A DNA stretch of 35,848 nt, from positions 1-35,848 of IMG/VR virus record IMGVR_UViG_3300048576_000483; one strand, given 5' to 3'. This document shows, in pieces, positions 1,790-35,848 of the stretch. Numbering within the stretch: position 1 is the stretch's first letter; every line of letters begins with the position of its first letter. The stretch comes from a virus (taxonomy: Duplodnaviria > Caudoviricetes). The position numbers and the translations under genes are program-made. The notes beneath the pieces are model-generated. The model searched no databases and was not told the origin of the DNA. It worked only from the letters and a program-made list of their open reading frames with translations.

Positions 1790-1839
1790 TGGCGGGCAAT
1801 GCGGGATTCGAACCCACGACCTTCGGCTCCGGAGGCCGA
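1790..1839 (-). pseudogene. 3' half of tRNA-Arg(CCG); prophage attachment-site duplication
   Basis: Minus strand TCGGC-CTCCGGA-GCCGA anticodon arm (CCG), AGGTC, GTGGG-TTCGAAT-CCCGC T arm, ATTGCCC-G-CCA end; no 5' acceptor strand or proper D arm upstream. Confidence 0.85.
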
Positions 1840-1945
1840 TTCATCCAATCTGCCAATAGGCTGTTTTCGTGTCTTTTGATTGACCATCTAGGCAGATACG
1901 CCAGCTCTGTTCTTCATGCCACACCTCCCCAATTCGAGCAAGTAG

Positions 1946-3954: not shown

Positions 3955-5367
3955 ATGCTGACCATTCTGGATCTGCAGCGGCAGAAGGGCCTGGAACCAA
4001 AGCGTGTTTCGGCCTCCGAATGGGCCGGCCCATGTCCCGGATGCGGCGGGAAAGACCGTTTCCGGTCCTGGCCGGAAGCGCCCGACGGCGGCAATGGCTG
4101 GTGCCGCCAGTGCGAGTGGGGTGGCGACACCATCCAGTTCTGCCGGGATTTCCTCGGCATGGATTTCGGCGAAGCCTGCGAGCATGTCGGCCGGGACGCC
4201 AAGGTCTCGCCTACGCCGCGCCAAGCCCAGGCTCCGCGCGGGCAGCGCGCTTTCGTCGCGGCGCGGCCGGACCTGCCCCCGGCGCTCTGGCAGCAGCGCG
4301 CCGCCGATCTTGTGGCCTGGGCCCACGCCAAGCTGCTGCGTTCTCCGGAGCAGCTCGCCTACCTGGCCGGCCGCGGCATCAGCGAGGCGACCGCCCGCCG
4401 GTTCAGGCTCGGCTGGAACCCCGGCGAAAAGGGCGAAGACCTCTACCGCACGCGCGAATCGTGGGGCCTGCCGACCCTGCTCAAGGACGACGGCAAGACG
4501 CCGCGTCGGATCTGGATTCCACGGGGGATTGTGATCCCGGTTTTTGCGCCGCATGCCGGCACGGACAGTCCGGTGCGCCTGCGCATCCGCAGACCAAAGG
4601 AACACCTCCAGCCTGGGGAAGCGACAAAATACGTTGTTGTTTCCGGAAGTTCCGCGCACACGCTGGTCACGGACCGCGCCGCCCGGGCCTTCGTCATCGT
4701 CGAGGCCGAGTTCGACGCCATGCTCATCAGCCAGGCGCTCGGCGCGTCGTTGCCCGGCGCCGTGTCCGGAGTGGCGCTGGGCTCCCTGGCCTTCAAGCCG
4801 GACGCGGCCACCGACGAGCTGCTCACCCGGTCGCTGGCCGTGCTCGTGGCCCTGGACTACGAGCCCGTCAGCCCGGAGGAGGACAAGTCCAAGGCCGCCA
4901 ACCTTCGCCGGGTCTATGGCTGGTGGCTCGACCGCTACAAGCGGGCCGAGCGCTGGCCCGTGCCGCAGGGCAAGGATCCCGGCGACGCCTTTCAGGCGGG
5001 TGTGGACATTGCGGCTTGGGTTACTGCGGGGCTGCCTCCCGTGCTGCGCATCCGGGACGCCGAGCCCGCGACGGTCGGACCGTTGTCGTCTGGTGGGGTG
5101 GTTGCAAGGGGCGCGCGTTTGGATGTCCCGGGACATCTCGCCAGCCAGGCGGCGGAGCTGGCTCGGCATATGGCCGCCCATGGCATCACCATCCAGCGGG
5201 CGGACTCCGGCCGGATGGTCCCGCAGCGTGGCGAGGCCACCCCGGCCAGCGCCATGGAGGAAGTTGTTTTCCTCATACCAGACGACCTGTTGGTCTGGTT
5301 GGATAAATGTGGAGCGGGCGTTGTGACGGGAGAGACGCTGCAGCATGCAATTGGAGGTGTGCGATGA
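3955..5367 (+). CDS. DNA primase with P4-alpha-like zinc-binding domain and Toprim domain
   Basis: GPCPGCGGKDRF...WCRQCEWGGD zinc ribbon; YLAGRGI; Toprim motifs IVEAEFDA, VALDYE, GKDPGD; GGAGG RBS. Confidence 0.88.
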   Translation: MLTILDLQRQKGLEPKRVSASEWAGPCPGCGGKDRFRSWPEAPDGGNGWCRQCEWGGDTIQFCRDFLGMDFGEACEHVGRDAKVSPTPRQAQAPRGQRAFVAARPDLPPALWQQRAADLVAWAHAKLLRSPEQLAYLAGRGISEATARRFRLGWNPGEKGEDLYRTRESWGLPTLLKDDGKTPRRIWIPRGIVIPVFAPHAGTDSPVRLRIRRPKEHLQPGEATKYVVVSGSSAHTLVTDRAARAFVIVEAEFDAMLISQALGASLPGAVSGVALGSLAFKPDAATDELLTRSLAVLVALDYEPVSPEEDKSKAANLRRVYGWWLDRYKRAERWPVPQGKDPGDAFQAGVDIAAWVTAGLPPVLRIRDAEPATVGPLSSGGVVARGARLDVPGHLASQAAELARHMAAHGITIQRADSGRMVPQRGEATPASAMEEVVFLIPDDLLVWLDKCGAGVVTGETLQHAIGGVR

Positions 5368-5957
5368 CTCTGACATTGGAGATGTGGCCCATCGGGCGCT
5401 TGCGCGCCTATGAGCACAACCCGCGCAAGAATGACGCAGTAGTTCCAGATATGGTCAAATCCATCAAGGAATTTGGGTTTCGGTTGCCGATCCTGGCCAA
5501 ACCTGACGGAGAAGTGGTGGATGGTCATCTGCGGCTCAAGGCCGCCTTTGAGCTTGGTCTGACTGAGGTGCCCGTGCTGCTCGCTGACGACCTCACCGAA
5601 ACCCAGGTCAAGGCTTTCCGACTGCTTGCTAATCGCAGCGCCAATTGGGCCACCTGGGATAATGATTTGCTCGCGCAGGAGTTGGAATCAATTTCCAGCG
5701 AGGGATATGGTGAGGTTTTTTCCGGATTTTCGGCGGATGAAATTGAAGAAATCAATATGTTGGCGAGCCTTGAAGTCGTCGACGTTGAAAAATCGACCAT
5801 CGATGAGACAAAATTCGGCCGGGAGACTTCTATCAAGGTTGTTCTCCCGCCAGGCGATTTGAGAATTTTCGAACTGGCGATCCAAAAGACTGGAGAATTT
5901 AACCGCGCCGCCGCAGTGCGTGTTATCTGTGAGGCTTATTGTGGCGAAAAAAGATAA
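5364..5957 (+). CDS. ParB/Srx N-terminal domain protein with a short acidic C-terminus
   Basis: YEHNPRKND...SIKEFGFRLPIL...VVDGHLRLKAA...AFRLLANRS...WD; ATGA overlap with the primase stop; GGAGG RBS. Confidence 0.88.
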   Translation: MTLTLEMWPIGRLRAYEHNPRKNDAVVPDMVKSIKEFGFRLPILAKPDGEVVDGHLRLKAAFELGLTEVPVLLADDLTETQVKAFRLLANRSANWATWDNDLLAQELESISSEGYGEVFSGFSADEIEEINMLASLEVVDVEKSTIDETKFGRETSIKVVLPPGDLRIFELAIQKTGEFNRAAAVRVICEAYCGEKR

Positions 5958-6591
5958 TGCAGGCATACAGCATAAGGCTAGAATGCGGGAGTTGTTGCTT
6001 CGAGAAATAGCCGATCCGGTGATAATGGAGACCCATGCAGGGAGTGGGCATTTATACCGGTTGTGTTACTCGGCATATACCCGTGGAGTGGCGTTTGAAA
6101 TCAATAAAAAGAAAGCTGCTCTTCTTGCCTCACAGAGGCCATCTTGGGCAGTCTATAATAATGGCTGTGAGTATGCGCTGATGTCAGGTGTGGGATTTCA
6201 TCTGCCTCTGAACTTCTTTGACCTTGATCCGTACGGAGACCCCTGGCCCGTTTTGGATGCGCTTTTGACCAACCATGCCGTTCTCCCGGACCGCTGGGGT
6301 CTTGTCGTTAATGATGGTCTGCGCAGGTTCCTGATGCTCGGCTGCGGCTGGAAATCGAGAACTGTGGGCGAATATGTCGCCAAGGTTGGCAATACCCATG
6401 CAGGGGAGATCTACCCGGAGCTGTGCCGAGTTATCATGGAGGATAAACTCAGGCCTCACGGTATGGCCGTGACACGCTGGCTTGTCCACTCGTCCGGCCA
6501 TGGCGGCCAAATGACTCATTATGCGGCGGTCATCGAACGCGAAAAAAGCCCCCTCGAAGGCAGGGGGCTGATGCTTAGGCGGCTTGGGTGA
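5941..6591 (+). CDS. Putative SAM-dependent methyltransferase-fold protein (Trm1/TcmP-like DLDPYG motif)
   Basis: Motif I-like IMETHAGSG, acidic motif II VAFEIN, FFDLDPYGDPW; GTG start at 5941 after GAGG, overlapping the ParB gene end. Confidence 0.65.
   Translation: MAKKDNAGIQHKARMRELLLREIADPVIMETHAGSGHLYRLCYSAYTRGVAFEINKKKAALLASQRPSWAVYNNGCEYALMSGVGFHLPLNFFDLDPYGDPWPVLDALLTNHAVLPDRWGLVVNDGLRRFLMLGCGWKSRTVGEYVAKVGNTHAGEIYPELCRVIMEDKLRPHGMAVTRWLVHSSGHGGQMTHYAAVIEREKSPLEGRGLMLRRLG
6542..6569 (-). terminator. Intrinsic terminator of the radical SAM gene
   Basis: Minus strand AGCCCCCT-GCCTTCG-AGGGGGCT followed by TTTTT, about 35 bp past the radical SAM stop. Confidence 0.75.
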
Positions 6592-6602
6592 TGGTCACCA
6601 TG

Positions 6603-7349
6603 CTAGGCAGCGCGCTTGGTTCGACAGTTTTCCAGGTCGATTTTGATATACCGTGCCGCGCCATGTTCATCAAGCTTGGCCTCGGCGCGGTCCAAAAACT
6701 GGCCCCAGTCGATGGTCTTGGTGTGCGGGTGGTAGTTGAGCTTGCCGACCTTGTAGAGGTCGACAAAATCATGGGTCTGATCAACCAGGCGCAGGACCGC
6801 ATCCGGGTTGATGACGGGTTCAAAGCTCACCCAGGTTTCCAGGCCTGCCGCCTTGGCAAACTTGAGGGCCGCGATGCGGTCAGCGGGCAGCGCCGCTCCC
6901 GGCTCCCACGCCAGGGATTCGGCGGGATCGTCAGTGGTGAGGGTCGCAGCCCACACGCCGTTGGCCTTGGCCAGCAGATCGACGTCGCGCTTGATCGCCC
7001 ACAAGCCAGCCTTGGTGAGGATCTGGGGGCGCAGATTGTGCCGCTCCATGATCTGGAGGGCCTGGCGGGTCAGCTTAAGCTCCTTTTCGGCGGGCTGGTA
7101 CACGTCCGAAGTGAAGCTCATGAGGATGAGCTCCCGGCTGCCCGCCAGCTTCTCCGCGTCCTTGGCAAGTTGGGCCAGAGCACCCGGACGCTCACGGATA
7201 TAGGAGGCATCCGAGAACTTGGAGCGATCGGTAAACGTGGCGGCCGGGGCAAAACAGTAGGAGCAGGCGTGGGCACAGCCCTTGTAGAGGTTGGCGGCCA
7301 GGGCCGAATATTCGCGGGCTTTGCCTCTGGGCTCGTAGATGATGGGCAT
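6603..7349 (-). CDS. Radical SAM protein, spore photoproduct lyase-like / DUF5131-related
   Basis: NLYKGCAHACSYCFA (CxxxCxxC), SDVYQPAE, QILTK, WVSFEPV; GGAGGAG RBS before ATG 7349. Confidence 0.88.
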   Translation of the reverse strand: MPIIYEPRGKAREYSALAANLYKGCAHACSYCFAPAATFTDRSKFSDASYIRERPGALAQLAKDAEKLAGSRELILMSFTSDVYQPAEKELKLTRQALQIMERHNLRPQILTKAGLWAIKRDVDLLAKANGVWAATLTTDDPAESLAWEPGAALPADRIAALKFAKAAGLETWVSFEPVINPDAVLRLVDQTHDFVDLYKVGKLNYHPHTKTIDWGQFLDRAEAKLDEHGAARYIKIDLENCRTKRAA

Positions 7350-7395
7350 ATGGGCGTCTCCTCCGGTTATGGGTTGATCCGCTATCCACGGGCCC

Positions 7396-7424
7396 AATAT
7401 ATGCCGATTTTTTTTAAAAATCAA
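7396..7424 (-). promoter_or_regulatory. Sigma70-type promoter of the radical SAM gene
   Basis: TTGATT (7424-7419), 17 bp spacer, TATATT (7401-7396). Confidence 0.6.
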
Positions 7425-7508
7425 GCAATTTCAGGTAGCTATGTAAAATATAAACATAGTCATATCGATGTGTAAGCCGTGTAAGGCGAATATTTATTCG
7501 GGGGAGTC

Positions 7509-8291
7509 ATGACCGATTTATCCGAGCTGGTCGCAAAATCGAATTCCGTCGATGCCGGAAGTTTGCTCGCTGTCAAGGAGCGCGCTCGGCGCGAGATGAA
7601 AGAAAACCCCTCAAGCCAAAATATCGCAGTCTATAATGCCGCGCGTAAGGCTTTGGATGCCGTAGTCCGTGGGCAAGAGACAAAAAAAGTAAATAATGAA
7701 AGTAAATTAGCCTCAATAAAGGAAGTAATCCGCTTCCTTGAGACCGAGGGCTACGCCTCGACCACCAGCGTCTACCGGCACCGGAAGGAGGGCAAGCTCA
7801 AGCCCGATGCGGACGGGTCATTCAGCGAGGCGGCAGTGCTGCGCTACGCCAAGGCTAACTTGAGGCAGATGGCCACAGGCCTCAAGGACAGCGAGGACGC
7901 TGCGCTGCGCCAGGACAAACTGGCCGAGGCGCGCGAAGAACTTATCCGCGAGCAGACCCGGCTGGCCCGGCGCAAGCGCGAAATTGAGGAGGGCAAATGG
8001 GTGCCCAAGGCCGGAGTGGCCCAGGACCTGGCCATGCGCGCGGTGATGCTCAAGACCGGCCTCAAGCAACTCATCACGTCGAGCGTCAGCGATTGGATCC
8101 ATCTGGTGGGCGGCGACCCCCGCCGCGCTCCGGATCTGCTCCGGGCCATGCTGGAGGGCCATGAGCGTCTGCTCTCGGACTATGCCCGCGCGGACAACAT
8201 CACACTCATCATCGAGCCGGCGACGCGAGAGGATCAAGACCCTGGCCAGGAGCTCCCACTGGCGCAGACGGACGAAGGGGGTTGTCTATGA
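7509..8291 (+). CDS. Probable terminase small subunit (Nu1-like)
   Basis: HTH-like segment (STTSVYRHRKEGKL), coiled coil ending REIEEGKWVP, position upstream of the large terminase. Confidence 0.7.
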   Translation: MTDLSELVAKSNSVDAGSLLAVKERARREMKENPSSQNIAVYNAARKALDAVVRGQETKKVNNESKLASIKEVIRFLETEGYASTTSVYRHRKEGKLKPDADGSFSEAAVLRYAKANLRQMATGLKDSEDAALRQDKLAEAREELIREQTRLARRKREIEEGKWVPKAGVAQDLAMRAVMLKTGLKQLITSSVSDWIHLVGGDPRRAPDLLRAMLEGHERLLSDYARADNITLIIEPATREDQDPGQELPLAQTDEGGCL

Positions 8292-15073: not shown

Positions 15074-15592
15074 ATGCAGCGGATGATCGGGAGACACTGC
15101 GCGCAGATTTGGGGCGAACTGCCCCGACCGGCGCACAAAGCACTGCTCTGCCTCGGCGCCGCTCCCTGCGGCGTCGAGCAGACGCAGGCCTTTCTCGCGC
15201 ATACCGCTGCGGACGTGGCCGCCTGCAATGACGCCATCGTCACCTACCCCGGCCCGCTTTTCGTGGCGGCCAGCCTGCATGTCAAATTGCTTTCCGGTTG
15301 GCTGAAAGACCGGACGGCGATGAATGGGCGGCCGTGCGTGGTCGGTTCGGACTTTGTCGCGGGCGTGGATGTGGTGGTCGGGTTCAACCGGGCCGTCGGA
15401 TCCAGCGGCATGTACCTCGCCCTTTTGGGCGGGCTCATGGGCTACGGCCGTATCGTGCTGGCCGGCATCCTGCTCGAGCGCGAGGGCGAGGAGCCCTACC
15501 GCAAGATCTGGCGCGCCGCCAAAGACGAAGGCGCCTTGAGACACGTGGAGAGCCTGTCCAGCGGTTGGCTGGGGGATCTCCTGCGGACATGA
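15074..15592 (+). CDS. Hypothetical protein with a Rossmann-like GSSG...GYGRIVLAG motif
   Basis: Motif resembles MAF/MptE-like and sialyltransferase-like folds; fills the gap in the operon. Confidence 0.55.
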   Translation: MQRMIGRHCAQIWGELPRPAHKALLCLGAAPCGVEQTQAFLAHTAADVAACNDAIVTYPGPLFVAASLHVKLLSGWLKDRTAMNGRPCVVGSDFVAGVDVVVGFNRAVGSSGMYLALLGGLMGYGRIVLAGILLEREGEEPYRKIWRAAKDEGALRHVESLSSGWLGDLLRT

Positions 15593-31824: not shown

Positions 31825-32943
31825 CTAGCGCGTCCTTTGGCTCGGGGTGTACGCGGGGATGCGTAGCCGGGTGCGTCGTCGCTGGATGGATATGGGCGTG
31901 CGTCCTAGTATCAGGCCTATCGCGCTGTCTGTGTCCGTGCCCAAGAGAGCGTCCTCCTCCGCCGTCCAGTCATTGTGTGGCCTACGACGTATGTATGCGG
32001 GGATGCGCAGACGGTTGCGATATCGCTCGATGGATTCGGGCGTGCGTCCTAGTATCAGGCCTATCGCTCTATCTGTGTCCGTACCCAAGAGAGCTATCTG
32101 ATCCGCTGTCCAGCCTCCGCGCTGATGGGCTGGGCTCGACTTACCACGGGAGTTGGGGCGGGGAGTATAGGGTATCGCGCGCACATCGTCGGGATGGACT
32201 AAGCGACGACGATCTCTCATAATAGACATTAACCAATTGGTGTGCATACGATATAATATAGCATACTCGGGTATGCCAGTAAGCCTGGACGCCACATCTA
32301 TAGTGATCCACTCGGAGATGTCATCGGGTATATATCTCGTGTCGGCGCGAAATCGGCGGTTGACCGATTCGCGCCACAGGAAGAGGTCATCTATCCGGAT
32401 CCAGGGTCTACCTTCGAGGCGGCAAGATCTGAGATCGCCGGCTTTTATTGCAGAGGATAATGTGGCAGGAGTAAGTCCTATAATTTGCGCGGCTTCGGCC
32501 GTGATGAGGAGCCTACAGCCGTCGGCGTCATAACGCCGGACATGCTCTGGCCGACGGCGATGCTGGCTCACCGCGCCAGCGCTCCGGCCATGCGCCGCGC
32601 GAAAATCCTCAATAGTGCTGGTGGTATCAACGCACCGCTCCCGCCACCAGGCCGCGTTGTCCGCATGCCAGTCATGGCCCAGGGCCTTGCGCAGGCGCTT
32701 GATGGCCGTGCGGCAGAGAGGCAAGCTGATGCCGTCCGGGTCCATGCGCATCGACTCAAGGTAGTCCGCAAGATCGCGCGTCATGATGGCCCTGACTCCG
32801 CCGCCCCCTTTGCCGCGCTGCGCGTCCTGGGGCCAGCCGAGCATAACCGGCCAGCCATGCTCCGTCGGCCGCGCCTCGCGGACATCCCAGACGCGGCCCC
32901 AGATGTCCTCTGCCTGACCGATGATCGTCGCGTGTCGTCCCAT
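31825..32943 (-). CDS. Multi-HTH DNA-binding protein with C-terminal Myb/SANT-like repeats
   Basis: TAEAAQIIGLTPATL and DVASRLTGIPE HTH-like segments; two WTA..ALLGTDTD.AIGLILGRTP repeats. Confidence 0.7.
   Translation of the reverse strand: MGRHATIIGQAEDIWGRVWDVREARPTEHGWPVMLGWPQDAQRGKGGGGVRAIMTRDLADYLESMRMDPDGISLPLCRTAIKRLRKALGHDWHADNAAWWRERCVDTTSTIEDFRAAHGRSAGAVSQHRRRPEHVRRYDADGCRLLITAEAAQIIGLTPATLSSAIKAGDLRSCRLEGRPWIRIDDLFLWRESVNRRFRADTRYIPDDISEWITIDVASRLTGIPEYAILYRMHTNWLMSIMRDRRRLVHPDDVRAIPYTPRPNSRGKSSPAHQRGGWTADQIALLGTDTDRAIGLILGRTPESIERYRNRLRIPAYIRRRPHNDWTAEEDALLGTDTDSAIGLILGRTPISIQRRRTRLRIPAYTPSQRTR
31849..32112. repeat. Imperfect 144-bp tandem duplication (48 aa)
   Basis: GCGGGGATGCG at 31853 and 31997; shared GGGCGTGCGTCCTAGTATCAGGCCTATCGC. 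Confidence 0.9.
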
Positions 32944-32949
32944 GCCGAC

Positions 32950-33438
32950 CTATCCAGCCAGCAGGCTATCCACGTAGGCCTCAGGCTTCACCGTCCGGTA
33001 GTGGCCCGCCTGCCAGTAGGCGCAGGCCCAGATCGCCAGGGCGGTCGCCTCGATCTGCCCCAGGCCCTCCAGGCGCGATGCCAGCGCCTCCGTCTCATAG
33101 CCCCACTTGGCGGCCATCCCGTCCAGCTCGGCGTCGCGCACCATGAGCGCCAGGTGATCCGGACCGCAGAGCTGGGGCATGAGATAGTGGGCGTTGTGCA
33201 GGTCGACAAGCGCAAGCAGCTCCTCACGCGAGAGCTGCCGGGCTGCGCGCGCCAGGGCGCGCGGCAAGGCGACGCCCGCCCACTCGATGAGCCAGGCCGC
33301 GCCGCCCGTGGGCGAGGCGAAATTGTCTGTCGCGTAGTCGAGCGTGGACTCGTCGAGGCGCATGCTGACCATGCGGCGGCCGGCGCTGGGGCGCTGCTTG
33401 ACGCGCCCGCGCTTGGGCGTGGTGGGAGAGTCGGACAT
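32950..33438 (-). CDS. Hypothetical protein with possible ribbon-helix-helix N-terminus
   Basis: AGGAGG RBS; MVSMRLDESTL pattern. Confidence 0.7.
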   Translation of the reverse strand: MSDSPTTPKRGRVKQRPSAGRRMVSMRLDESTLDYATDNFASPTGGAAWLIEWAGVALPRALARAARQLSREELLALVDLHNAHYLMPQLCGPDHLALMVRDAELDGMAAKWGYETEALASRLEGLGQIEATALAIWACAYWQAGHYRTVKPEAYVDSLLAG

Positions 33439-33534
33439 GGGCACCTCCTGTGTGTGTGCGTTGCCGGGACTATCCCGGCCCCGATGCCAGGTCCGAGCGG
33501 GGCTCGGATCTGGTGCGGGGTCAGGCCGCGAGCG

Positions 33535-33792
33535 TCACAAGATATCTCCATGACAGCCGGGACGTAGGCGCACGGCGCCCACACCATTGAGGCCATTGGC
33601 CGCCATAGCCACGCACATACGCGCGATCTCCGGCGTCTCCCTCCGCGTGATCCGCATCTCCCAGTCCTCCCATAATCGGACTCCAAGCCATGTCCCGGTC
33701 ACAGAATGGTGGGCGGCAAGTCGATCCTGGGCACGCTTGGCGATGATGCGGACATCATGGATATCAGTCATGGCGGCGGTGATGGTGGGCAT
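33535..33792 (-). CDS. Hypothetical protein
   Basis: AAGGAGAG RBS before ATG. Confidence 0.6.
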   Translation of the reverse strand: MPTITAAMTDIHDVRIIAKRAQDRLAAHHSVTGTWLGVRLWEDWEMRITRRETPEIARMCVAMAANGLNGVGAVRLRPGCHGDIL

Positions 33793-33902
33793 AGTCTCTC
33801 CTTGTGGATCTATGAGCCAGTAGGTATAGTCACACGTCCTCGCCGGCCGTCGGGGGGCAGGCTGCCAGGCTCTGCATCCCCCTCGACGGTCGCGGCGAGG
33901 CG

Positions 33903-34232
33903 CTAGATGTAGTACACAGACCGCCCCGCAGCGCCCATGCGCTCCTCAGCGATGGGTCCGGTCTCGTCAGCGATGATCCGATAGCCATACTCATAGTCAT
34001 CCAGCTCATCCCAAGAGGCTTGGGGGTCGGGATCACAGCCCTCCCAGTCGGAGATATCCGCATCCGCATCCGCAAGGGCGGCGGTATCCGTGCGCAGCGC
34101 CGCCGGGTTATGCTCGTAGCCACTGTGCGCATACACCGGGATAGTGCGCTTGTGGTCATCGGCCGCAAAGACATACAGGGTCAGGCCGCCGCCATTGTCC
34201 TCGACCACGCTGTAGATATACTTGGCGCTCAT
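33903..34232 (-). CDS. Acidic hypothetical protein
   Basis: GAGGAG RBS; first gene after the sigma70 promoter. Confidence 0.7.
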   Translation of the reverse strand: MSAKYIYSVVEDNGGGLTLYVFAADDHKRTIPVYAHSGYEHNPAALRTDTAALADADADISDWEGCDPDPQASWDELDDYEYGYRIIADETGPIAEERMGAAGRSVYYI

Positions 34233-34285
34233 GGTCTCTCCTCGGTTTGTCGGGCTTGGCCCCCTGCCTTGCCCTTGTTGAGGAT

Positions 34286-34314
34286 AAGATAGCGACGCGC
34301 TGACATTTTGTCAA
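34286..34314 (-). promoter_or_regulatory. Near-consensus sigma70 promoter with overlapping palindrome
   Basis: TTGACA (34314-34309), 17 bp spacer, TATCTT (34291-34286); TGACA-TTT-TGTCA at 34301-34313; AT-rich tract upstream. Confidence 0.8.
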
Positions 34315-34404
34315 GCACTTTGTAATATTTTTATTATTAATAATATCGGCATATTGTCGTTATTGGGAAAAATGATCGCGTAGGAGTCACAAGCTGGGCC
34401 CGGG

Positions 34405-34929
34405 CTACCAAGGGGCGGCGTGCCCTCGGTTCCGATCCCATTCCTCGCGGTAGAGGCGGGCCAGCTCGGGAGAGTCCAGGATGAGCAGGTTTTCGGCGTT
34501 GCGCGCCTCCGCCCCGGTGGTGAAGTTGAAACTGCCGGTGGCCACGGCCCGGCAGTCGAAGACCATGATCTTGTTGTGCGCGATGGCGTGTCGTGAATCC
34601 ACGGCGACGTGGCCGCCGCAATCGGCCAGCGCCTGCCCCTGGCCTCCCTTGGCTGTCCGCTGCGAGCGGTCCAGCACGGCCTCCACTCGCACACCGCGCG
34701 CGACGGCCCGGCAAAGAGCCGCGGTGATGGGTCCGGAGGTGAAGCTGTAAGCCAGGATGTAGACAGACTCGTGCGCCGCGTCGATATGACGCACGAGCGC
34801 ATCCTGCGCGCCGCCATGGGGCGAATAATAGACCTCCGTTGGAACTTCTTTGAGTGTGAGGTCTTTTGCCGCGCCGCTGCCGGTGAGCATCAGCAGCGAC
34901 ACGACTACAAAGGCGAAAAAGCGCTTCAT
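34405..34929 (-). CDS. Exported phospholipase D-family (Nuc-like) endonuclease
   Basis: Signal peptide MKRFFAFVVVSLLMLTGSGAA; YYSPHGG, AYSFTS, single HNKIMVFD...GSFNFT...NAEN motif. Confidence 0.9.
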   Translation of the reverse strand: MKRFFAFVVVSLLMLTGSGAAKDLTLKEVPTEVYYSPHGGAQDALVRHIDAAHESVYILAYSFTSGPITAALCRAVARGVRVEAVLDRSQRTAKGGQGQALADCGGHVAVDSRHAIAHNKIMVFDCRAVATGSFNFTTGAEARNAENLLILDSPELARLYREEWDRNRGHAAPW

Positions 34930-35552
34930 TGATCGTCTATGGTATCGAGAAAATCCGCAATTTCAACTGGCGCGAAGCCTTGCTTTTCCAGAATCAGGCC
35001 AGCTTCGGCAAGGCCGAGTTGGCCTCCATGCGCAAGCTGGACCTCGTCATACGCCTTTTTTATGGGCGACGACGGGGGGCCTACTCCGGAGGGCATATCC
35101 CGGCCGCAATGCTTGCAAACAATGGCCTCGGGTTTGATCTCCTCGGCGCAATAGGGACAGAGGCGCGGTGTCGGCGGCGTGTAGGGCCGTGGTTCCTTGC
35201 GCAGGAGAAGGGGCTTAAACAGAACCGCCCAGGTCAATACTATGAGCGCTGTGGTTAAGACCCCAGCGTACTTCCCGTACGTTTCAGGGGGAATGATGAG
35301 CATGGACAGGGTGATGCTGAGCCCAGGCGAGATGAAAAAAAGGAAGAATCGACCAAACCGGCTGCTCTTTTGTATGTGGAATGATTTCGTCTTATACGCG
35401 GACCCGACTGCGGGACTCAGGCCGACCATAAGCAGTGCGAAGGGGCCGAGCAGAATGCCGAGTACGAACCAAAGACCTGAGCTTTTGTTTTTCTGCCCGG
35501 CGATGTAGGAAGAAGCGATACCGCAGAGTACCCAGATCGCGAAATATCCCAT
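34926..35552 (-). CDS. Multi-pass membrane protein with zinc ribbon
   Basis: About 4 TM segments; CPYCAEEIKPEAIVCKHCG; ATG 35552 after GAGG. Confidence 0.8.
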   Translation of the reverse strand: MGYFAIWVLCGIASSYIAGQKNKSSGLWFVLGILLGPFALLMVGLSPAVGSAYKTKSFHIQKSSRFGRFFLFFISPGLSITLSMLIIPPETYGKYAGVLTTALIVLTWAVLFKPLLLRKEPRPYTPPTPRLCPYCAEEIKPEAIVCKHCGRDMPSGVGPPSSPIKKAYDEVQLAHGGQLGLAEAGLILEKQGFAPVEIADFLDTIDDQ

Positions 35553-35560
35553 CCACCACC

Positions 35561-35848
35561 TCACAACATCTGCATCACCCAGACCGCACGGCCCACGATG
35601 AGATCATCCCTGCCGTCCAAGACCACGCGCATTGGCGGGTGCTCGGGGTTGATGCTTTTGAGTATCAACTCGCCGGCCTGGGGGTCAACGAATATCCGCT
35701 TGACGGTTAGCCCCTCATAGGGGATGCGCACTCCATAGCGCTCCCCAGCCACAATCCCCCTTTCCTCGGTGTTCAGGCCCACGAAAGCGCCGTCGTGGAT
35801 CTCCGGCTCCATGCTGTGGCCCTTGATCTGCACGATGAGGATGCTCTC
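35561..35848 (-). CDS. C-terminal S24 peptidase domain of a cI/LexA-like repressor (5' end outside the window)
   Basis: GHSMEP (catalytic Ser), TVKRI (catalytic Lys), LKSINPEH, IVGRAVWV. Confidence 0.88.
   Translation of the reverse strand, partial: ESILIVQIKGHSMEPEIHDGAFVGLNTEERGIVAGERYGVRIPYEGLTVKRIFVDPQAGELILKSINPEHPPMRVVLDGRDDLIVGRAVWVMQML

What the first reader, a model, noticed from the sequence alone, without database searches (positions are those of the whole stretch)
5364..7424. Candidate phage DNA-modification system: ParB domain + DLDPYG methyltransferase + SPL-like radical SAM enzyme
Seen: between primase and terminase sit a ParB/Srx-domain gene, an overlapping SAM-methyltransferase-fold gene (ETHAGSG, FEIN, DLDPYG) and a convergent CxxxCxxC radical SAM gene. 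Established: this slot in lambdoid phages often holds a ParB-fused N6A/N4C methylase with a DPPY motif. DLDPYG is instead typical of Trm1 guanine-N2 methyltransferases and resembles TcmP proteins that partner DUF5131 radical-SAM-like proteins. SPL-family enzymes act on DNA bases. Inference: two-step, non-canonical base modification (methylation plus radical chemistry) for anti-restriction, with ParB as recruiter or nucleotide-processing partner. An alternative is write/erase or repair activity.
Basis: partly seen in the sequence, partly recalled or inferred. Interest (0 to 1): 0.8.

Follow-up and report, generated by a model that had tools for sequence, protein, structure and literature searches.

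The report
Phage ParB–methylase–radical SAM DNA-modifying cassette
This prophage carries a three-gene set that recurs just before the packaging genes of many unrelated uncultured phages (a ParB-type protein predicted to dock a methylase shaped like a tRNA guanine methylase, plus a separately oriented iron-sulfur radical enzyme), and it likely puts a two-step chemical mark on phage DNA that has not yet been measured.

Summary
The best folds are Trm1 for the middle protein (Z 16.2) and spore photoproduct lyase (SPL) for the radical SAM (Z 17.8).

Among 136 methylase clusters, ParB is adjacent in 119. A convergent partner is adjacent in 101: SPL-like in 71, DUF5131 in 30, never both. These two partners are full-length homologues (hhalign 97%) and swap often on the tree.

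The ParB protein ends in a conserved 47-residue module found only with this methylase subfamily. A complex model docks it on the methylase's conserved QRPxWAVY strand (0.80; best control 0.00). The methylase is a remote TcmP relative, not a member.

Best reading (0.42): ParB and methylase methylate an exocyclic amine, probably guanine N2, in replicated phage DNA, and the radical enzyme converts that methyl group. Erasure and independent repair remain open. No chemistry was shown, and anti-restriction is untested. The scan found this kind of cassette before on other DNA (e1-6284271, e1-3332736). My paper searches found no study of it.

The parts
5364..5957 (+). ParB_N-domain protein (197 aa), translationally coupled to the upstream primase; predicted recruiter subunit of the methylase
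   Evidence: Pfam ParB_N E 1.2e-5, just below cut-off; PHROG 620 E 1.6e-40 and the N-terminal part of PHROG 498; N19 and G54 in 58 of 58 rows, R57 in 36 of 58, N90 in 37 of 58
5814..5954 (+). Conserved C-terminal strand-helix-helix module of the ParB protein (residues 151-197), ribbon-helix-helix-like, predicted to dock the methylase
   Evidence: E170 invariant, R181 nearly so; present in 118 of 136 methylase clusters, and in the reverse set only in the 10 clusters with this methylase subfamily; Pfam RHH_1 weak in 2 of 53; complex score 0.80, best control 0.00
5941..6591 (+). Trm1-fold class I SAM methyltransferase-like protein (216 aa; most homologues about 200 aa, so the last ~14 residues are a tail over the terminator)
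   Evidence: AF2 pLDDT 92.5; Foldseek top hit Trm1 E 1.5e-9; VIA Z 16.2, rmsd 3.1, 191 aligned; E30, G34, G36, D94, D96, P97, G99 invariant in 57 rows
6547..6569 (-). Intrinsic-terminator-like hairpin with U run, downstream of the radical SAM gene and inside the methylase's 3' tail
   Evidence: 8-pair stem; region fold z -2.18, 5 of 200 shuffles as good
6603..7349 (-). SPL-like radical SAM enzyme (248 aa), full-length homologue of DUF5131
   Evidence: Pfam Radical_SAM E 3e-9; NF033668, NF038135 and TIGR04470 matches all below cut-off; SPL top fold, Z 17.8, 221 aligned; hhalign to DUF5131 97.3%, 201 columns
7350..7424 (-). Promoter-like site (TTGATT-17-TATATT) and GGAGGAG ribosome-binding site of the radical SAM gene, in the gap divergent from the terminase small subunit
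   Evidence: sequence; function inferred, not shown
7509..8291 (+). Terminase small subunit (context: the cassette's usual downstream neighbour)
   Evidence: PHROG 57 E 4.9e-10; terminase-like genes of unrelated families follow the cassette in related loci

Best explanation
The ParB protein and the Trm1-fold enzyme are predicted to form one methyltransferase complex that likely methylates an exocyclic amine (most likely guanine N2) in newly replicated phage DNA before packaging, and the radical SAM enzyme would then take a hydrogen from that methyl group and convert the base into a further-modified one. Shown: gene anatomy, folds, conserved SAM-binding and cluster motifs, co-occurrence, and interchangeability of the SPL-like and DUF5131 partners. 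Predicted: ParB docking, where the strand of the C-terminal module pairs with the methylase's QRPxWAVY edge strand, so the split pair equals the ParB-methylase fusions of other phages. Inferred: DNA as substrate, guanine as target, the order of steps, and a role in shielding or marking virion DNA.
For: Co-occurrence: partner adjacent in 101 of 136 clusters and within 6 kb in 6 more. Of 6 near-complete genomes with no adjacent partner, 5 hold one elsewhere (three are one clade, one copy has an internal TAG).

Reverse survey: 51 of 71 radical SAM clusters have a methylase within 4 kb by my profiles, and 17 have the methylase co-directional upstream, mostly in ParB>methylase>radical SAM order.

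The pairing also holds outside the phage slot: 18 of 19 cellular TcmP loci have DUF5131 next door and 0 of 19 have ParB. TcmP is a remote relative of the methylase (hhalign 87.9%).

The same slot holds ParB-fused DNA N6/N4 methylases, which PMC4738411 describes as ParB-terminase loci predicted to modify phage DNA.

Complex score 0.80, best control 0.00. The mark was reached by 116 of 157 solved and 2 of 215 mismatched pairs; runs agree in at least 92% of contacts; partner pLDDT at least 87. The job was unlike the calibration.

Precedent: M6 gp53, a radical SAM with an SPL-like fold prediction, remodels a phage DNA base (PMC8989533). Trm5 followed by TYW1 on tRNA guanine is recalled, not from a call.
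Against: The partner is on the opposite strand in 102 of 102 strong hits, with its own promoter and terminator matches here, so the genes are probably not co-transcribed.

One complete 120-kb genome (G006) has the methylase and no partner by two searches; four incomplete records also lack one.

Twenty of 71 radical SAM clusters show no methylase by my profiles (11 have short flanks; L184 carries a Dam-like/GNAT fusion). The cultured phage PDS1 has a distant homologue with none within 4 kb.

The radical SAM also neighbours DPPY-type methylases (8 of 71), which fits a generic role or slot sharing. Methylase and radical SAM distances correlate only weakly (rho 0.28).

Trm1 identity is 13%, and the hundreds of other Foldseek hits include small-molecule and protein methylases.
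Confidence: 0.42

Rival explanations
1. Write and erase: ParB and methylase mark DNA during replication, and the separately expressed radical SAM removes the mark (radical N-demethylation that needs no oxygen) after injection or in the lysogen, or protects the host from the methylase.
For: The partner is an independent leftward unit in 102 of 102 strong hits (here). In a minority of loci it follows leftward genes such as Spo0J-like ParB, DUF932, AAA and beta-clamp-like genes. SPL, the closest fold, reverses a DNA lesion (PMC4929162). It neighbours several methylase types.
Against: Distant relatives have the genes co-directional (17 upstream, 6 downstream of 71; with L251 re-read by eye). No fourth conserved cysteine like SPL's hydrogen donor is present.
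Confidence: 0.2
2. The methylase complex acts alone as an ordinary anti-restriction or packaging methylase, and the radical SAM is an independent DNA-repair or replication-fork enzyme that shares the pre-terminase slot.
For: The radical SAM or DUF5131 occurs without a detected methylase (20 of 71; PDS1; no annotated methylase within 3.5 kb in PhiCh1 and Nsp-JY10). SplB-like enzymes occur in SOS operons (PMC3765255). G006 lacks a partner.
Against: The slot was refilled by the paralogue many times (22 changes, at least 8 forced) and the two are never together (0 of 5 and 0 of 5 records, mostly incomplete). The cellular TcmP-DUF5131 pairing (18 of 19) exists without ParB.
Confidence: 0.18
3. The pair acts on something other than duplex DNA: tRNA (like Trm1), free nucleotides, or a protein.
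For: The top methylase folds are the tRNA enzymes Trm1 and TYW2. tRNA-like sequence follows the methylase in L139/L144.
Against: The methylase model aligns only to Trm1 residues 17-232 of 387, so it lacks Trm1's C-terminal part. The ParB partner and the slot are those of DNA methylases. ARAGORN finds no tRNA gene in the window.
Confidence: 0.12

Closest known systems
Phage ParB-terminase (ParB-Tls) methyltransferase loci (PMC4738411, passages; PHROG 498; PADLOC MTase_II N-terminus)
   Same: Same slot before terminase, same ParB_N domain, methylase partner; DPPY fusions occupy this slot next to the same radical SAM in 8 of 71 reverse clusters.
   Different: The methylase is Trm1-fold with DxDPYG, not DPPY; it is split from ParB and predicted to dock through a dedicated module; a radical SAM or DUF5131 partner is usually present.
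TcmP + DUF5131 pair (TIGR04474 + PF07505; PADLOC PDC-M30B/M41B for the DUF5131 part)
   Same: DxDP[FY]G methylase-fold protein paired with a Megacluster-5 radical SAM (PMC9477430 table); DUF5131 partners here hit PDC-M41B/M30B at E 3e-79 or better.
   Different: The methylase does not hit TIGR04474 or any PDC model and is only remotely related (87.9%); it is shorter, ParB-linked and convergent; here the partner is the SPL-like paralogue.
Trm1 tRNA (guanine-N2) methyltransferase
   Same: Best fold match (Z 16.2); DLDPYG aligns with DLDPFG; weak Pfam TRM hits in 19 of 57 members.
   Different: 13% identity, catalytic domain only, phage DNA context; substrate untested.
Spore photoproduct lyase and the SplB-like PA0069/Rv2578c families
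   Same: Best fold match (Z 17.8); CxxxCxxC motif; weak HMM matches.
   Different: Lacks SPL residues 1-69 and any fourth conserved cysteine; all NCBIfam scores are far below cut-off.
Phage M6 gp53 radical SAM isomerase of thymidine hypermodification (PMC8989533, passages)
   Same: Radical SAM with an SPL-like fold prediction that remodels a group added to phage DNA by a partner enzyme.
   Different: Acts on glycinyl-thymidine in a hydroxymethyluracil pathway; no such genes were seen in this cassette.

Membership tests
Class I SAM methyltransferase | Rossmann-like methyltransferase fold with motif I (ExxGxG) and acidic motif II | tested here: met
   E30, G34, G36 invariant; E53 in at least 90%
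Class I SAM methyltransferase | Methyl transfer activity | not testable with these tools
   needs an assay
Trm1 (PF02005/TIGR00308) | HMM score over cut-off | tested here: not met
   no hit for the window protein; best member of 57 E 0.0036
Trm1 (PF02005/TIGR00308) | DxDP[FY]G motif IV | tested here: met
   aligned to 2dul DLDPFG; PYG in 120 of 128 strong family members
Trm1 (PF02005/TIGR00308) | Full-length ~375 aa protein with C-terminal domain | tested here: not met
   216 aa; aligns to Trm1 residues 17-232 only
TcmP (TIGR04474) | HMM score over 53 bits | tested here: not met
   no hit at E 0.1; a profile of 19 TcmP sequences finds none of these methylases; remote homology 87.9% over 102 columns
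TcmP (TIGR04474) | Neighbour is DUF5131 | tested here: inconclusive
   here the neighbour is its SPL-like homologue; DUF5131 is adjacent in 30 of 136 clusters
N6-adenine/N4-cytosine DNA methylases | [DNS]PP[YFW] motif and PF01555 match | tested here: not met
   no such motif or Pfam hit; only a weak PADLOC MTase_II match, E 0.011, on motif I
Radical SAM superfamily | CxxxCxxC motif and partial TIM barrel | tested here: met
Spore photoproduct lyase | Conserved fourth, hydrogen-donor cysteine (C140/C141; role recalled) and N-terminal domain | tested here: not met
   only three invariant cysteines in 57 rows; aligns to SPL residues 70-341
PA0069 / Rv2578c / TIGR04470 families | Score over curated cut-off | tested here: not met
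   84.8 of 360, 55.5 of 430 and 41 of 410 bits
ParB CTPase fold | N-terminal nucleotide-binding motifs (GxxR, downstream N; motif roles recalled) | tested here: met
   G54-H-L-R57 and N90 in the window protein; R57 in only 36 of 58 relatives
Partitioning ParB/Spo0J | Helix-turn-helix for parS recognition | tested here: not met
   no HTH_ParB hit, whereas a Spo0J-like neighbour gene in L049 has one
Ribbon-helix-helix proteins | Strand-helix-helix dimer that binds DNA | tested here: inconclusive
   RHH_1 weak in 2 of 53; no solved-structure match; in the model the strand contacts the methylase

The most novel reading that the evidence does not exclude
This is a DNA guanine-N2 methyltransferase, loaded by a ParB-type partner, coupled to a radical SAM enzyme that turns the N-methyl group into a new hypermodified purine (or erases it without oxygen). 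It would define the shared chemistry of the uncharacterised DUF5131 and SPL-like families and of cellular TcmP-DUF5131 defence candidates.
Probability: 0.25. Interest if true: 0.87.

Novelty: new variant of a known kind. Interest (0 to 1): 0.62.

Why it matters
DUF5131, the SplB-like radical SAMs and TcmP are widespread, and the papers I could see give them no known substrate (PMC4929162 says so for archaeal SplB-like enzymes). This locus shows that the SPL-like and DUF5131 enzymes are interchangeable homologues coupled to Trm1-fold methylases, and it gives a small three-gene test system with a specific predicted docking surface. If the best reading holds, it adds a new DNA base modification and another radical SAM enzyme acting on DNA; PMC8989533 named only SPL and M6 gp53 in 2021.

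Tried and rejected
1. C-terminal 'AA' on the radical SAM looked like a ClpXP degron. Rejected: it is forced by antisense overlap with the methylase's HYAA codons (24 of 29 at that overlap, 2 of 78 elsewhere). The window's own protein is one of those 2.

2. Clamp-binding-like QxxLF tails occur in 11 of 107 partners against 13 of 1,084 ORFs (a total that includes the partners). Several lie in the overlap zone and the window's enzyme has none, so I did not use this as evidence.

3. Sequence searches of the PDB gave nothing significant for the methylase, the radical SAM or the C-terminal module. The ESM Atlas gave unnamed viral clusters and one TRM-labelled cluster at 0.92.

4. No cultured phage holds this methylase subfamily (0 of 50,697 records). 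One distant form matched only Dulem virus 36 and another matched nothing.

5. Sequencing runs: no RNA holder listed; two runs with small shares gave only short pieces. This says nothing on expression.

6. The methylase and radical SAM profiles are unrelated.

7. Methylase-radical SAM binding was not modelled; the single complex job went to the ParB module.

8. Paper searches found no study of this cassette or of enzymatic N2-methylguanine in phage DNA; (TcmP) returned only unrelated acronyms in the 20 of 361 listed. The library lacks most subscription papers. Iyer 2013 (PMC3763556) was not held. The main text of the PADLOC candidate preprint does not name PDC-M30/M41; its supplements could not be seen and may bear on the TcmP-DUF5131 pair.

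9. The careful tree did not finish; the quick tree was used.
Full report
Observation. The window is a virus record. It begins with a host-like activator gene and a tRNA-like attachment remnant at 1793-1862 (Rfam; ARAGORN found none), so it is probably a prophage; the host is unknown. Primase, ParB and methylase overlap at their ends and probably form one unit. The radical SAM has its own promoter-like site (7424-7396), ribosome-binding site (7358-7364) and terminator-like hairpin (6569-6547). The position 7424 is therefore promoter sequence, not a start. GC in 5001-7500 is 0.52-0.59, against mostly 0.60-0.72 in the rest of the window.

The methylase. It has no Pfam, NCBIfam or PHROG hit, but 63 homologues were found, of which I aligned 56 with the window protein. 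The AF2 model (pLDDT 92.5) has Trm1 as top match by Foldseek (E 1.5e-9) and VIA-align (Z 16.2, rmsd 3.1, 191 aligned; next is TYW2 at 14.4). DLDPYG aligns with Trm1's DLDPFG. It is not a Trm1 or TcmP member by HMM. Its profile matches a profile of 19 TcmP proteins at 87.9% over 102 columns. A wider set of distant relatives (hhalign 99.3%) has DLDAYG, DLDDYG or DFDAYS, so the two aspartates and the aromatic residue are the constant part. That these activate an exocyclic amine is recalled from Trm1, not shown. Guanine N2 is the likeliest target, but adenine N6 or cytosine N4 are not excluded.

The radical SAM. SPL is the top fold (Foldseek E 1.6e-7; Z 17.8 over SPL residues 70-341). It has three invariant cysteines only, and invariant lysines and tryptophans (K113, K200, K236, W148, W173, W215), which suits a nucleic-acid substrate by inference. 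It is below cut-off for PA0069, Rv2578c and TIGR04470. Its profile matches DUF5131 over 201 columns at 97.3%. PMC9477430 (table passage) places MJ0683-like, DUF5131 and SPL in one megacluster.

Co-occurrence, forward. I collected 174 loci: the best 80 of 84 viral matches, all 13 genome loci, the best 80 of 161 metagenome matches, and one earlier duplicate. They form 136 clusters at 90% identity, including the window's own copy and 5 weak matches. A convergent SPL-like gene is adjacent in 71, a convergent DUF5131 in 30, DUF5131 further away in 6, none in 18, and 11 are truncated; no locus has both. ParB is adjacent in 119, elsewhere in 3, absent in 5 and cut off in 9 (DUF5131 identity confirmed). 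All 102 partner hits in strong family members are on the opposite strand. On a quick tree of 117 methylases (weak, partial and truncated rows left out) the DUF5131 label needs 22 changes, at least 8 forced. I searched 10 of the 18 no-partner records whole: 4 hold DUF5131 elsewhere, 1 holds an SPL-like gene with an internal TAG, and 5 hold neither. Among the 6 that are at least 90% complete, 5 have a partner and G006 does not. L067 has a third type of radical SAM directly downstream. Five SPL-type and five DUF-type records lacked the other partner (only 3 complete). Baselines are 172 and 9 of 50,697 GenBank phages. Named hosts of genome loci span Desulfovibrio, Chloroflexota, Acidobacteriota and cyanobacteria.

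Co-occurrence, reverse. Ten have the same methylase subfamily. Thirty-three have a distant DxDx[YF][GS] relative: 17 co-directional upstream, 6 downstream, and 10 convergent, two of these fused to ParB at only 31 bits. Eight have canonical N6/N4-type methylases by my own profile (Pfam agrees for L187 and L232). Nine have none found, one of which carries a Dam-like/GNAT fusion, and 11 have short flanks. So both partners are exchangeable, and the link is frequent but not obligate. In cells, 18 of 19 TcmP loci have DUF5131 beside them and none has ParB, which argues that the pairing is functional and not only slot sharing. Pairwise distances of methylase and radical SAM correlate weakly (rho 0.28; 0 of 500 permutations as high).

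The ParB subunit. The ParB_N part is variable (median identity 26%) and keeps the GxxR arginine in 36 of 58 rows. Residues 151-197 are much better conserved (mean column identity 55%) with a strand-helix-helix pattern, weakly like RHH_1 (2 of 53). The module is in 118 of 136 clusters. The 18 without it are 9 truncated, 5 weak matches and 4 others. In the reverse set it occurs only with this methylase subfamily. The methylase motif QRPxWxVY behaves the same way (111 of 128 against 0 of 31 distant). A complex model of two modules with the methylase scored 0.80, best of 3 controls 0.00. The mark was reached by 116 of 157 solved and 2 of 215 mismatched pairs; runs agree in at least 92% of contacts; partner pLDDT is at least 87; the counts hold only roughly for this job. 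The interface joins I157-P163, E170 and R181 to methylase residues 59-74, which are the conserved residues on both sides. This supports, but does not show, that ParB recruits the methylase.

Mechanism. Shown: anatomy, folds, motifs and pairing. Predicted: docking. Inferred: the complex, made with primase, methylates an amine on new phage DNA, and the radical enzyme attacks that methyl group. I put conversion to a further-modified base at 0.42, erasure at 0.20, independent repair at 0.18, a non-DNA target at 0.12, and other readings at 0.08. Anti-restriction is plausible but has no direct evidence here.

Known systems and papers. PMC4738411 (passages) describes ParB-terminase methylase loci predicted to modify phage DNA during packaging; the paper it cites for this, Iyer 2013, I could not read. 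PMC8989533 (passages) gives the M6 gp53 precedent. PMC3765255 and PMC4929162 (passages) place SplB-like enzymes in repair contexts, the latter with unknown substrate in archaea. PMC12445080 (one passage) lists tcmP beside hna, and PMC12429752 (passages) lists TcmP in prophages without function. PMC10853773 (passages) added nothing specific. DUF5131 partners match PADLOC PDC-M30B/M41B, while the methylases match no PDC model. Ten searches found no study of this cassette. Earlier notes of this scan describe related cassettes on other DNA; they are leads, not support.

Verdict. This is a real, conserved, uncharacterised variant of the ParB-terminase methylase locus and a phage cousin of TcmP-DUF5131. 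The chemistry may be new but is untested. Interest 0.62.

Noticed in passing
window 1793-1862 (-): tRNA-like sequence (Rfam 35.4 bits; CCG anticodon read from the sequence; missed by ARAGORN) at the host-phage border, probably the attachment-site copy of a tRNA-Arg gene.
   Followed up: partly
L012:1496-3295, L017:1743-3539, L119:6583-8067: The SPL-like radical SAM carries inteins, two with LAGLIDADG domains.
   Followed up: partly
L067:7023-8003: A third, unrelated-looking radical SAM type sits co-directionally right after the methylase in a locus lacking both usual partners.
   Followed up: partly
L184:4287-5627 (similar N-termini in L186, L188): Dam-like-phage1 plus GNAT fusion gene downstream of the SPL-like radical SAM.
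   Followed up: partly
L194, L195, L241 and relatives: ParB partners of the distant methylase subfamilies end in different conserved strand-helix-strand modules, one type per subfamily; possibly other docking modules.
   Followed up: no
L049:7671-8552, L018:8655-9749, L024:7485-8315, L062:7473-8348: Leftward genes upstream of the partner in some phages: Spo0J-like ParB (12 loci), DUF932 (6), AAA clamp-loader-like (6), beta-clamp-like (4).
   Followed up: partly
L263 (PDS1) and L265 (PhiCh1): ASCH-domain genes lie near the radical SAM or DUF5131 in cultured phages; sliding-clamp genes do so in PhiCh1 and vir524 (L268).
   Followed up: no
L264:2846-4786 (Dulem virus 36, PP511521): An annotated genome with co-directional ParB, distant DLDAFG methylase and radical SAM genes.
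   Followed up: partly
L054:6623-7963: DUF5131 fused to a C-terminal DUF488-N3a domain.
   Followed up: no
window 15074-15592 (+): 172-aa ORF among head genes whose last ~20 residues resemble those of the Trm1-like methylases at a glance; no family hit of note and no hit to my methylase profiles.
   Followed up: partly
window 31825-35833 (-): Leftward cluster with an HTH_17 protein, small unknown genes, a PLD-family nuclease-like gene and a zinc-ribbon membrane protein.
   Followed up: no
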